From Escherichia coli (GTDB lineage Bacteria > Pseudomonadota > Gammaproteobacteria > Enterobacterales > Enterobacteriaceae): DNA of 64,000 nt. The stretch lies in NCBI RefSeq assembly GCF_017348835.2, contig NZ_CP071375.1; one strand, given 5' to 3'. The position numbers are program-made. Below, one piece after another: positions 15,001 through 18,000 of the stretch; the stretch's first letter is position 1, and every line of letters starts with the position of its first letter.

Positions 15001-18000
15001 GAATCATTAGATGGCCAACCTGAGAAGCGATTGACAGCCGAACCGATATTATCAGGACTCATAGCAGCAACCTCATTGTAATCAAGCGAGGCGCTGAGCG
15101 TACTCGGCTATAGAAAAACTAACTTGCAAAAATCGCTCATTTTTCATTTATCAGGCGAAAGTAGCCTCTGTTCACTCAGAAACAATCACTCCCGGTAAGT
15201 CATACCTGTTTCATCGATACATTTAAGTGATTATTACTAATGAAACAATAACATAACGGGCTTACGGTCGGTGCTCATAAAGGCAACAATCAATTAACTT
15301 TGATAAAAATATGTTATGTAAAATAGCAACAAATTGGCTACTCTAATCAATTGGTATTATAAAAAGTTGATTGGGCGGTTCTGTTAAATAAAACACTGGT
15401 TTTTTATCTATACCTTTTCATTGTAATAATTGTGTTGCATAAATATTTCACAATAAATTAACAATAAAATCACCAATGATCTATGGTTTATACATAATTA
15501 ACATATTTGGTTGTTTTTGATATAAATCAATTTTTAATTCTTGAAAAAAATCTGCAAAACACGATAAATTGTCGTAGATCAAATTGGTGAGATCGTGACA
15601 ATTTCGCTATAAATTGATCACTGTCGAAAAATGCAAATTTGCTCAATAAAAACCTGTTTATTGTAAGGATTTTGCGGCGTAATATAATTACGGGATCAAT
15701 TTGGTTTATTCATTAACATATTTGTAACTTTTTTATCATTGTCTTTTCCTCTTTTGATGAAATGGCAACGATAGAGGCGAGCAAATAATTTTGTATTGGG
15801 GCATGCGTGTGACCCTTTCTAACGGGGTTCACTCTCGGAGTCTTCATGCGATGAGCAAGGAGTCATGATGTTAGATATAGTCGAACTGTCGCGCTTACAG
15901 TTTGCCTTGACCGCGATGTACCACTTCCTTTTTGTGCCACTGACGCTCGGTATGGCGTTCCTGCTGGCCATTATGGAAACGGTCTACGTCCTTTCCGGCA
16001 AACAGATTTATAAAGATATGACCAAGTTCTGGGGCAAGTTGTTTGGTATCAACTTCGCTCTGGGTGTGGCTACCGGTCTGACCATGGAGTTCCAGTTCGG
16101 GACTAACTGGTCTTACTATTCCCACTATGTAGGGGATATCTTCGGTGCGCCGCTGGCAATTGAAGGTCTAATGGCCTTCTTCCTCGAATCCACCTTTGTA
16201 GGTCTGTTCTTCTTCGGTTGGGATCGTCTGGGTAAAGTTCAGCATATGTGTGTCACCTGGCTGGTGGCGCTCGGTTCAAACCTGTCCGCACTGTGGATTC
16301 TGGTTGCGAACGGCTGGATGCAAAACCCAATCGCGTCCGATTTCAACTTTGAAACTATGCGTATGGAGATGGTGAGCTTCTCCGAGCTGGTGCTTAACCC
16401 GGTTGCTCAGGTGAAATTCGTTCACACTGTAGCCTCTGGTTATGTGACTGGCGCGATGTTCATCCTCGGTATCAGCGCATGGTATATGCTGAAAGGTCGT
16501 GACTTCGCCTTCGCTAAACGCTCCTTTGCTATCGCTGCCAGCTTCGGTATGGCTGCCGTTCTGTCTGTTATTGTTCTGGGTGATGAATCCGGCTACGAAA
16601 TGGGCGACGTGCAGAAAACCAAACTGGCTGCTATTGAAGCTGAGTGGGAAACGCAACCTGCGCCTGCTGCCTTTACTCTGTTCGGCATTCCTGATCAGGA
16701 AGAGGAGACGAACAAATTTGCTATCCAGATCCCTTACGCGCTGGGCATCATTGCAACGCGTTCCGTGGATACTCCAGTTATCGGCCTGAAAGAACTGATG
16801 GTGCAGCATGAAGAACGCATTCGTAACGGGATGAAGGCGTACTCTCTGCTTGAGCAACTGCGTTCTGGTTCTACCGACCAGGCGGTTCGTGACCAGTTCA
16901 ATAGCATGAAGAAAGACCTCGGTTACGGTCTGCTGCTGAAACGCTATACGCCAAACGTGGCTGATGCGACTGAAGCTCAGATTCAACAGGCAACCAAAGA
17001 CTCCATTCCGCGTGTAGCGCCGCTGTACTTCGCGTTCCGTATCATGGTGGCGTGTGGCTTCCTGCTGCTGGCAATCATCGCGCTCTCTTTCTGGAGTGTC
17101 ATCCGCAACCGCATTGGCGAGAAAAAATGGCTGCTGCGCGCCGCGCTGTACGGTATTCCGCTGCCGTGGATTGCTGTAGAAGCGGGCTGGTTCGTGGCTG
17201 AATATGGCCGCCAACCGTGGGCTATCGGTGAAGTGCTGCCGACAGCTGTGGCGAACTCGTCACTGACCGCAGGCGATCTCATCTTCTCAATGGTGCTGAT
17301 TTGCGGCCTGTATACCCTGTTCCTGGTGGCAGAATTGTTCTTAATGTTCAAGTTTGCACGCCTCGGCCCAAGCAGCCTGAAAACCGGTCGCTATCACTTT
17401 GAGCAGTCTTCCACGACTACTCAGCCGGCACGCTAAGACAGGAGTCGTCAAATGATCGATTATGAAGTATTGCGTTTTATCTGGTGGCTGCTGGTTGGCG
17501 TTCTGCTGATTGGTTTTGCAGTCACTGACGGTTTCGACATGGGGGTGGGCATGCTCACCCGTTTCCTCGGTCGTAACGACACCGAGCGTCGAATTATGAT
17601 TAACTCCATTGCACCACACTGGGACGGTAACCAGGTTTGGCTGATCACCGCAGGCGGCGCACTGTTTGCTGCCTGGCCGATGGTCTATGCCGCTGCGTTC
17701 TCCGGCTTCTATGTGGCGATGATCCTCGTGCTGGCGTCTTTGTTCTTCCGTCCGGTCGGTTTTGACTACCGCTCCAAGATTGAAGAAACCCGCTGGCGTA
17801 ACATGTGGGACTGGGGCATCTTCATTGGTAGCTTCGTTCCGCCGTTGGTGATTGGTGTAGCGTTCGGTAACCTGTTGCAGGGCGTACCGTTCAACGTTGA
17901 TGAATATCTGCGTCTGTACTACACCGGTAACTTCTTCCAGCTGCTTAACCCGTTCGGCCTGCTGGCAGGCGTGGTGAGCGTAGGGATGATCATTACTCAG

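What the first reader, a model, noticed from the sequence alone, without database searches (positions are those of the whole stretch)
15063..15864. Perfect FNR palindrome in the long AT-rich cydA control region shared with the divergent orphan genes
TTGATATAAATCAA at 15517-15530 is a perfect FNR consensus. The roughly 800-bp AT-rich leader is typical of the multi-promoter, FNR/ArcA/H-NS-controlled cydAB region. In this strain the same region must also drive the divergent orphan genes, so those genes may be co-regulated with respiratory oxygen sensing.
Basis: partly seen in the sequence, partly recalled or inferred. Interest (0 to 1): 0.25.

Follow-up and report, generated by a model that had tools for sequence, protein, structure and literature searches.

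The report
Known FNR operator of cydAB promoter
The palindrome is the well-known binding site through which the oxygen sensor FNR represses the cytochrome bd oxidase operon. This strain carries one of two sharply different natural versions of that control region, and nothing shows that the site also controls the neighbouring orphan genes.

Summary
TTGATATAAATCAA sits at 15517-15530 in the 802-bp AT-rich spacer between a 314-aa orphan gene (minus strand) and cydA. It is the orthologue of the K-12 site TTGATATTTATCAA, which FNR binds in ChIP and which lies at -53.5 from cydA promoter P1. A weaker second site lies 52 bp downstream (-1.5). A perfect palindrome occurs at the same distance from cydA in many enterobacterial genera, most of which lack the orphans, so cydA regulation alone explains its conservation.

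ArcA boxes occupy the same positions as in K-12 and the outgroups, so this is a complete cydAB control region.

No evidence supports co-regulation of the orphans by FNR. The site is about 460 bp from their start codon, no credible leftward promoter has FNR-activation geometry, and the orphans have their own conserved upstream block of about 110 bp within a 164-bp orphan-specific segment.

The unexpected result lies elsewhere. The 302 bp around the promoters (15492-15793) exist in E. coli as two discrete haplotypes only 79-81% identical: about 2,245 genomes carry this type and about 3,180 the K-12 type, with no intermediates. That divergence equals E. coli versus Citrobacter, while cydA itself is 97-100% identical. 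The finding as stated is already known; the dimorphism is a modestly interesting extra.

The parts
15517..15530 (.). FNR operator 1, TTGATATAAATCAA, with perfect TTGAT-N4-ATCAA half-sites. It is centred at 15523.5, which is -53.5 relative to the inferred cydA P1 start.
   Evidence: It aligns to K-12 TTGATATTTATCAA, which is L002 6026 = U00096.2 770333 and is listed as the FNR site under the cydA ChIP peak (position -53.5). A perfect palindrome lies -340 to -350 from the cydA ATG in Citrobacter, Enterobacter, Kluyvera, Shimwellia and other genera.
15569..15582 (.). FNR operator 2 (degenerate), TTGTCGTAGATCAA, with 2 mismatches. It lies 52 bp downstream of operator 1, at about -1.5 relative to P1, overlapping the start site.
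   Evidence: It aligns to K-12 TTGTTCTCGATCAA, which is U00096.2 770385 and is listed as a second cydA FNR site. The same 52-bp spacing is seen in outgroups.
15541..15570 (+). cydA P1-like promoter: -35 TTGAAA, 18-bp spacer, -10 TAAATT. The inferred start is near 15577, about 291 nt upstream of the cydA ATG.
   Evidence: The consensus scan finds it. Its position fits FNR sites at -53.5 and -1.5. The start site has not been mapped in this strain.
15661..15688 (+). Downstream promoter-like element TTGTAA-16-TATAAT, inside a roughly 100-bp block that is nearly identical in both haplotypes.
   Evidence: 10/12 matches. The K-12 equivalent predicts a start near U00096.2 770511, next to the anaerobic sigma-70 ChIP peak at 770509. 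Block conservation is shown.
15283..15317 (.). Distal ArcA boxes: 15283-15300 (-) 14.0 bits and 15300-15317 (+) 17.3 bits. They lie 221-255 bp from the orphan ATG. They are the positional counterpart of K-12 ArcA region cydA1.
   Evidence: The weight matrix was built from 115 ArcA boxes of Park et al. 2013 Table S3. A box in + orientation occurs at -542 to -614 from the cydA ATG in the E. coli alleles and in 10 of the 15 outgroup species scanned.
15421..15504 (.). Middle ArcA box cluster: 13.9, 20.5, 14.5 and 16.2 bits. It is the counterpart of K-12 region cydA2. Its last box spans the left breakpoint of the dimorphic segment.
   Evidence: The recombinant HH97 switches haplotype at about 15492.
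15713..15730 (-). Proximal ArcA box aagttacaaatatgttaa, 20.5 bits. It is the counterpart of K-12 cydA3 (15.3 bits).
15492..15793 (.). Dimorphic promoter-proximal segment. This window carries haplotype A; K-12 carries haplotype B. The two are 79-81% identical.
   Evidence: In 5,425 E. coli genomes identity to this window is >=95% in 2,245, 90-95% in none and 80-90% in 3,180. The 44-mer contexts of the palindrome split 2,224 versus 3,178.
15794..15867 (+). Invariant end of the cydA 5' UTR, including the ribosome-binding site. It is identical in all alleles compared.
15227..15491 (.). Distal control segment. It is shared with E. coli genomes that carry a TPR gene instead of the island. It is not detectably homologous to the K-12 distal segment.
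   Evidence: Local alignment z = -0.7 against K-12.
15063..15226 (-). Segment found only in orphan-bearing alleles. 15063-15175 is a GC-richer block, about 88% conserved against a lineage whose orphan protein is only 65% identical. It contains a GAGG ribosome-binding site 8 nt before the ATG. 15176-15226 is hypervariable. This segment is the likely location of the orphans' own 5' UTR and promoter.
   Evidence: That it holds the promoter is inference.
14118..15062 (-). Orphan gene of 314 aa, restricted to Escherichia, with no known family.
   Evidence: There is no significant family or structure hit. Only close relatives turn up among 5.8 billion and 1.84 billion proteins. dN/dS is 0.36-0.42 over an ungapped 314 codons.
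13614..14036 (-). Second orphan gene of 140 aa, downstream of the first and upstream of glmS.
   Evidence: It has decayed to a remnant in L006.
15868..17436 (+). cydA, cytochrome bd-I subunit I. The protein is identical to the K-12 protein (WP_000884361.1).
   Evidence: Nucleotide identity to K-12 is 97-99.7% per 300 bp.

Best explanation
The palindrome is the promoter-distal FNR operator of the cydABX-ybgE operon. Under anaerobiosis the [4Fe-4S] FNR dimer binds it at -53.5. Together with the weaker site over the start point at -1.5, this shuts down promoter P1. ArcA-P binds three box clusters at roughly -570, -370 to -440 and -146 from the cydA ATG and counteracts H-NS silencing of this AT-rich DNA. 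The result is peak expression at low oxygen.

This strain carries 'haplotype A' of the control region. It keeps every site in register but differs by about 20% from the K-12 haplotype in the promoter-proximal 302 bp. Its distal half cannot be aligned to K-12 at all.

The orphan genes abut this region. They most likely use their own promoter in the 164-bp orphan-specific segment next to their start codon.

Shown here: the sequence, orthology, conservation and site positions. Taken from K-12 literature: FNR and ArcA binding, and repression or activation. Inferred: the P1 start in this strain and the location of the orphan promoter.
For: The exact palindrome is present against a chance expectation of 0.15 per window. 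It aligns base for base to the K-12 site. That site maps to U00096.2 770333, and the second site to 770385. Both are listed as FNR sites under the cydA FNR ChIP peak at 770405, with position -53.5 and direct repression in Myers et al. 2013. A sigma-70-like promoter with its -10 ending at 15570 puts the start near 15577, which gives exactly -53.5 and -1.5. A perfect TTGAT-N4-ATCAA lies -340 to -350 from the cydA ATG in many enterobacterial genera, often with a second site 52 bp downstream. Six of the 11 ArcA-matrix hits of at least 14 bits in the whole 64-kb window fall in these 802 bp, against 0.12 expected. They sit at the K-12 ChIP and footprint positions and at the outgroup positions. ArcA acting as an anti-H-NS activator at cydAB is quoted.
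Against: No binding or transcription data exist for this strain or this haplotype. Operator 2 has 2 mismatches here against 1 in K-12. P1 has not been mapped here. K-12 is reported to use several cydA promoters and I could not read the primary mapping papers (Cotter 1997, Govantes 2000; not held, as). The detailed repression mechanism therefore rests on secondary citations and my own knowledge.
Confidence: 0.9

Rival explanations
1. The palindrome is a shared, bidirectional FNR site that also activates or represses a leftward promoter, so the orphan genes are co-regulated with oxygen sensing through FNR.
For: The orphans' promoter must lie in this spacer because nothing else is upstream of them. 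The site is symmetric. A TATAAA hexamer on the minus strand (15492 to 15487) lies 31.5 bp from the site centre. It is present in orphan-bearing alleles (window, L009; TATAGA in L006) and absent from the orphan-less alleles aligned.
Against: The site centre is 461.5 bp from the orphan ATG, so the 5' UTR would be about 420 nt. The hexamer is 2 bp beyond class II register (29.5 bp), lacks the critical -7 T and overlaps an ArcA box. No minus-strand sigma-70 match of at least 9/12 exists in the spacer, and weight-matrix candidates are weak. The palindrome is equally conserved where no orphans exist. The orphans have their own conserved upstream block.
Confidence: 0.07
2. The orphans are coupled to oxygen or redox state through ArcA and H-NS rather than FNR. 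The distal ArcA boxes (15283-15317) lie only 221-255 bp from the orphan ATG. The orphans (35-38% GC) and the spacer together form a continuous AT-rich tract of about 2.6 kb. H-NS could coat this tract and ArcA-P could open it.
For: The distal ArcA boxes are strong and positionally conserved. The AT-rich tract spans 13200-15800. ArcA is described as an anti-H-NS factor at cydAB. A weak conserved promoter candidate, TAGCCA-18-TAACAT, overlaps the distal ArcA box.
Against: This is purely positional. The ArcA boxes are conserved in genomes without orphans, so they exist for cydA. There is no expression or binding evidence, and the promoter candidate scores poorly.
Confidence: 0.2
3. The palindrome is a chance match in AT-rich DNA, or it is a site for another CRP-family regulator rather than FNR.
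For: AT-rich sequence produces many near matches: 56 sites with up to 2 mismatches in the window against about 40 expected.
Against: A perfect match is expected 0.15 times per window. The position is conserved across genera. The K-12 orthologue is FNR-bound in vivo. The half-sites are TTGAT/ATCAA (FNR type), not TGTGA/TCACA (CRP type).
Confidence: 0.01

Closest known systems
E. coli K-12 cydAB P1 FNR sites at -53.5 and -1.5 (Cotter et al. 1997; Govantes et al. 2000; ChIP in Myers et al. 2013, PMC3688515)
   Same: The half-sites are the same and so is the 52-bp spacing between the two sites. The distance to the cydA ATG is the same (-344.5 here, -341.5 in K-12). The -10 sequence is the same, and the downstream ~100-bp block and the last 74 bp of the 5' UTR are conserved.
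   Different: The spacer is ATAA instead of ATTT. Operator 2 has 2 mismatches instead of 1. The P1 -35 is TTGAAA instead of TTGGAA. The surrounding 302 bp are only 79-81% identical, and everything upstream of about 15492 cannot be aligned to K-12.
K-12 cydA ArcA binding regions cydA1, cydA2 and cydA3 (Lynch & Lin 1996 footprints; ChIP-seq in Park et al. 2013, PMC3798270)
   Same: There are three clusters at matching distances from cydA with the same box orientations.
   Different: The boxes of the middle and proximal clusters score higher here: 20.5, 16.2 and 20.5 bits against 13.0, 12.9 and 15.3. The distal box scores lower: 17.3 against 20.2. The distal and middle clusters sit in DNA with no detectable homology to K-12.
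Horizontal regulatory switching, or 'switched' intergenic regions upstream of core genes (Oren et al. 2014 from my own knowledge; Piggy, PMC5890482)
   Same: A core gene with about 99% identical coding sequence is preceded by alternative, highly divergent upstream regions. These are linked to different neighbouring accessory genes.
   Different: Here the switch preserves the full transcription-factor site architecture, and recombinants exist (HH97). I found no paper that names cydA as such a case, though that search was limited.

Membership tests
FNR operator | Inverted repeat TTGAT-N4-ATCAA | tested here: met
   There is a perfect match at 15517-15530.
FNR operator | Orthology to a site shown to bind FNR in vivo | tested here: met
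   It aligns to K-12 770333 TTGATATTTATCAA under the FNR ChIP peak at 770405.
FNR operator | FNR occupancy and an fnr-dependent effect in this strain or haplotype | not testable with these tools
   This needs ChIP, footprinting or reporter assays.
cydAB P1 repression module (two FNR sites at -53.5 and -1.5) | A second FNR-like site 52 bp downstream that overlaps the start of a sigma-70 promoter | tested here: met
   TTGTCGTAGATCAA lies at 15569-15582. The promoter-like element TTGAAA-18-TAAATT ends at 15570. The start site itself is inferred, not mapped.
cydAB ArcA/H-NS control region | ArcA direct-repeat boxes at the positions bound in K-12 | tested here: met
   There are seven boxes of 13.9-20.5 bits in three clusters at K-12 and outgroup distances, with 0.12 boxes of at least 14 bits expected by chance.
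cydAB ArcA/H-NS control region | H-NS binding to the AT-rich upstream DNA | not testable with these tools
   Only composition is available: 27% GC for 15201-15600.
Divergent FNR-dependent promoter (class II at -41.5, or class I at -61.5 and further) | A leftward -10 element in register with the FNR site | tested here: not met
   No minus-strand match of at least 9/12 exists in the spacer. The best weight-matrix candidates are weak. The nearest hexamer, TATAAA, is 31.5 bp from the centre instead of 29.5 and lacks the -7 T.
Divergent FNR-dependent promoter | The site is conserved only where the divergent gene is present | tested here: not met
   The palindrome is conserved in K-12, in TPR-type E. 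coli and in many genera without the orphans.

The most novel reading that the evidence does not exclude
The cydAB control region of E. coli is a long-standing two-allele regulatory polymorphism. Two promoter cassettes are as different from each other as E. coli is from Citrobacter. They split the species about 41% to 59% with no intermediates. They are tightly linked to different accessory content between sucD and cydA: all 1,138 genomes with the glutamate-fermentation island plus orphans carry haplotype A. The counts leave little room for mngRAB genomes carrying anything but haplotype B. TPR-type genomes carry either.

The two cassettes may set different oxygen-response curves for cytochrome bd-I. 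Haplotype A has better ArcA boxes in two of the three clusters, a better P1 -35 and a weaker operator 2. If so, low-oxygen respiration would be tuned to lifestyle. The dimorphism itself is observed; the functional difference is conjecture.
Probability: 0.3. Interest if true: 0.55.

Novelty: already known. Interest (0 to 1): 0.25.

Why it matters
The finding as stated adds nothing new. It rediscovers the textbook FNR operator of cydAB, and the proposed link to the orphan genes has no support.

The surrounding context has more value. Nearly all knowledge of cydAB regulation comes from K-12, yet about 41% of complete E. coli genomes carry a promoter cassette about 20% different from it. These include pathogens and strain 536. 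Cytochrome bd-I matters for gut colonisation and for growth at low oxygen. A natural allelic series with all transcription-factor sites in register but of different strength is therefore a ready-made experiment on how site quality shapes an oxygen-response curve. The locus is also a clean example of binding-site positions persisting in DNA that can no longer be aligned.

Tried and rejected
1. Chance origin of the palindrome was rejected by shuffles and cross-genus conservation.

2. A leftward promoter for the orphans was sought three ways. The consensus scan found nothing at 9/12 or better on the minus strand of the spacer. My own -35/-10 weight-matrix scan of three alleles found only weak candidates, with no class II or class I register to the palindrome. 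Hand inspection of the conserved 110-bp block found a ribosome-binding site but no convincing sigma-70 or sigma-54 promoter.

3. A structured RNA or riboswitch in 12500-16500 was sought, with no Rfam match at E <= 1.

4. The function of the orphans could not be assigned. Pfam, NCBIfam, PADLOC, PHROGs and PDB sequence searches gave nothing significant. Two very large protein searches found only close Escherichia relatives and fragments. The AlphaFold2 model had pLDDT 43, so I ran no fold search.

5. The origin of the two haplotypes stayed open. Each is about equally distant from the outgroup genera tested, so no donor could be named. The single genome-collection scan returned no Salmonella or other named Escherichia species.

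6. Homology of the distal segments between this strain and K-12 was tested and not detectable.

7. The literature search was limited. The primary mapping papers are not held. Guessed O157 locus tags returned nothing. No paper found names a cydA promoter dimorphism.

Full report
**Observation.** The sequence TTGATATAAATCAA is at 15517-15530. The pattern TTGAT-N4-ATCAA occurs twice in the 64-kb window against 0.15 expected from dinucleotide-preserving shuffles. The second copy, at 55634, lies in a lambdoid prophage near ral and sieB and is unrelated. The interval 15063-15864 is the spacer between a 314-aa minus-strand ORF (14118-15062) and cydA. The cydA ORF starts at ATG 15865; RefSeq annotates the start at 15868. 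GC is 27% for 15201-15600. The window is 100% identical to E. coli PE164, NZ_CP114128.1.

**Identity of the palindrome.** The spacer aligns to the K-12 mngB-cydA spacer, and K-12 has TTGATATTTATCAA at the same column. I mapped my K-12 locus to U00096.2 coordinates using ArcA site sequences published by Park et al. 2013. This puts the K-12 palindrome at 770333 and a second site, TTGTTCTCGATCAA, at 770385. Those two sequences and coordinates are the FNR sites listed for cydA in the supplement of Myers et al. 2013, under an FNR ChIP peak at 770405. Their main table lists cydAB as directly repressed by FNR with a site at -53.5.

In the window the second site is TTGTCGTAGATCAA at 15569-15582, 52 bp downstream. 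A sigma-70-like element (TTGAAA, 18 bp, TAAATT) ends at 15570. The P1 start is therefore near 15577, and the two sites fall at -53.5 and -1.5. The start site in this strain is inferred, not mapped.

**Conservation.** I fetched cydA loci from 80 species and scanned 40 of them. A perfect TTGAT-N4-ATCAA lies 340-350 bp upstream of the cydA ATG in most Enterobacteriaceae examined. Examples are Citrobacter, Enterobacter, Kluyvera, Shimwellia, Superficieibacter, Pseudescherichia, Siccibacter and Mangrovibacter. A second site 52 bp downstream is often present. None of these loci encodes a relative of the orphans. Selection on cydA regulation alone therefore explains the site.

**The rest of the control region.** I built a weight matrix from 115 published ArcA boxes and found seven boxes of 13.9-20.5 bits in the spacer. 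Six of the 11 boxes of at least 14 bits in the whole window lie in these 802 bp, against 0.12 expected. They form three clusters: 15283-15317, 15421-15504 and 15713-15730. These sit at the same distances from cydA as the three K-12 ArcA ChIP-seq regions. The same distances recur in 15 outgroup species: about -542 to -614, -392 to -422, about -370 and about -146.

A second promoter-like element, TTGTAA-16-TATAAT, lies at 15661-15688. Its K-12 equivalent coincides with the anaerobic sigma-70 ChIP peak at 770509. This is a complete cydAB control region. It occupies the spacer from about 15283 to 15867.

**The orphan genes.** By geometry the promoter of the 314-aa gene must lie in this spacer, but I found no link to FNR.
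- The palindrome centre is 461.5 bp from the orphan ATG.
- The consensus scan finds no minus-strand promoter of at least 9/12 in the spacer.
- A weight-matrix scan of three alleles gives only weak candidates.
- The nearest -10-like hexamer is TATAAA, at 15492 to 15487 on the minus strand. It is 2 bp out of class II register, lacks the -7 T and overlaps an ArcA box.

The segment 15063-15226 exists only in orphan-bearing alleles. Its first ~110 bp are about 88% identical to those of a divergent Escherichia lineage (L006). That lineage's orphan protein is only 65% identical. The block contains a GAGG ribosome-binding site. It is the more likely site of the orphans' 5' UTR and promoter, although that is inference.

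If any oxygen-linked regulator touches the orphans, the distal ArcA boxes and H-NS are better placed than FNR. The distal ArcA boxes lie 221-255 bp from the orphan ATG.

The 314-aa gene is real. It aligns without gaps over 314 codons, with dN/dS of 0.36-0.42. It has no detectable relatives outside Escherichia and no usable structure model.

In L006 the orphan faces cydA without the methylaspartate island, and the 140-aa gene has decayed to a remnant. The orphan-cydA pairing is therefore independent of the island.

**Unexpected context: occupancy of the sucD-cydA interval.** The interval has at least four states:
- mngR-mngA-mngB in K-12.
- A roughly 13-kb island in this strain and 1,138 of 5,426 genomes. 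It carries a LysR regulator, cobO, a fumarase, a transporter and methylaspartate ammonia-lyase and mutase genes, followed by the two orphans.
- A TPR gene plus 1.3 kb of non-coding DNA.
- The L006 arrangement.

**Unexpected context: a mosaic control region.** The cydA control region has four parts:
- 15063-15226, orphan-specific.
- 15227-15491, shared with TPR-type genomes but not homologous to K-12.
- 15492-15793, present as two haplotypes.
- 15794 onward, invariant.

For a 286-bp probe inside the third segment (15488-15773), identity to this window across 5,425 genomes is at least 95% in 2,245, 90-95% in none and 80-90% in 3,180. The 44-mers around the two palindrome versions split 2,224 versus 3,178. 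The two haplotypes are 78.9% identical to each other. That matches the 80-82% each shows to Citrobacter. Meanwhile cydA and downstream genes are 97-100% identical between the same strains, and the CydA proteins are identical.

Strain HH97 is a recombinant, with the TPR-type distal part and the K-12-type proximal part. The switch falls at about 15492, inside a conserved ArcA box.

Relative to K-12, haplotype A has higher-scoring middle and proximal ArcA boxes, a P1 -35 closer to consensus and a weaker operator 2. Whether this changes expression is unknown. I found no paper describing this dimorphism, but the search was limited.

**Verdict.** The co-regulation idea is not supported. The dimorphic promoter cassette is the only part worth following up.

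Noticed in passing
window 15492-15793: The promoter-proximal cydA control segment is dimorphic in E. coli. About 2,245 genomes carry this haplotype and about 3,180 carry the K-12 haplotype, with no intermediates. The haplotypes are 79-81% identical to each other, as far apart as either is from Citrobacter, while cydA coding DNA is 97-100% identical.
   Followed up: yes
window ~1500-15226 (sucD to cydA): The sucD-cydA interval is a replacement hotspot with at least four contents: mngRAB (K-12), a roughly 13-kb methylaspartate-pathway (glutamate fermentation) island plus two orphans (this strain, 1,138 of 5,426 genomes), a TPR gene plus 1.3 kb of non-coding DNA, and an arrangement of orphan plus a 258-aa protein in a divergent Escherichia lineage (L006).
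   Followed up: partly
window 15283-15317, 15421-15504, 15713-15730; loci L011-L035: ArcA boxes keep the same distance from cydA and the same orientation across E. coli alleles and 15 outgroup species. This holds even where the surrounding DNA cannot be aligned (local alignment z = -0.7 between this strain and K-12).
   Followed up: yes
window 15063-15175: A GC-richer block directly upstream of the 314-aa orphan is about 88% identical to L006, more conserved than the gene itself (77.6% nt, 65% aa). It holds a GAGG ribosome-binding site but no recognisable promoter and no Rfam match. Its role is unexplained.
   Followed up: partly
window 14118-15062 and 13614-14036; L006 8001-9200: The 314-aa orphan is an Escherichia-restricted ORFan under moderate constraint (dN/dS about 0.4). 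It faces cydA even in a lineage without the island. The 140-aa partner has decayed to a remnant there.
   Followed up: partly
window 13056-13613: A roughly 560-bp very AT-rich (28% GC) non-coding gap lies between the 140-aa orphan and glmS of the B12-dependent mutase operon. It has no Rfam hit (so no recognisable cobalamin riboswitch) and only a 2-mismatch FNR-like site at 13488.
   Followed up: partly
window 55634-55647: The only other perfect TTGAT-N4-ATCAA in the window (TTGATATTCATCAA) lies in a lambdoid prophage next to the ral and sieB genes. It is probably chance.
   Followed up: partly
K-12 locus L002 ~5732 (U00096.2 770039): The supplement of Myers et al. 2013 lists an aerobic sigma-70 ChIP peak about 640 bp upstream of cydA in K-12. 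This lies in the distal segment that has no homologue in this strain, so any distal promoter there is haplotype-specific.
   Followed up: no
window 15512: This strain and F2_81 carry a private T five bases upstream of the palindrome, where other haplotype-A alleles have G or A. Only 2 genomes match the 44-mer exactly.
   Followed up: no
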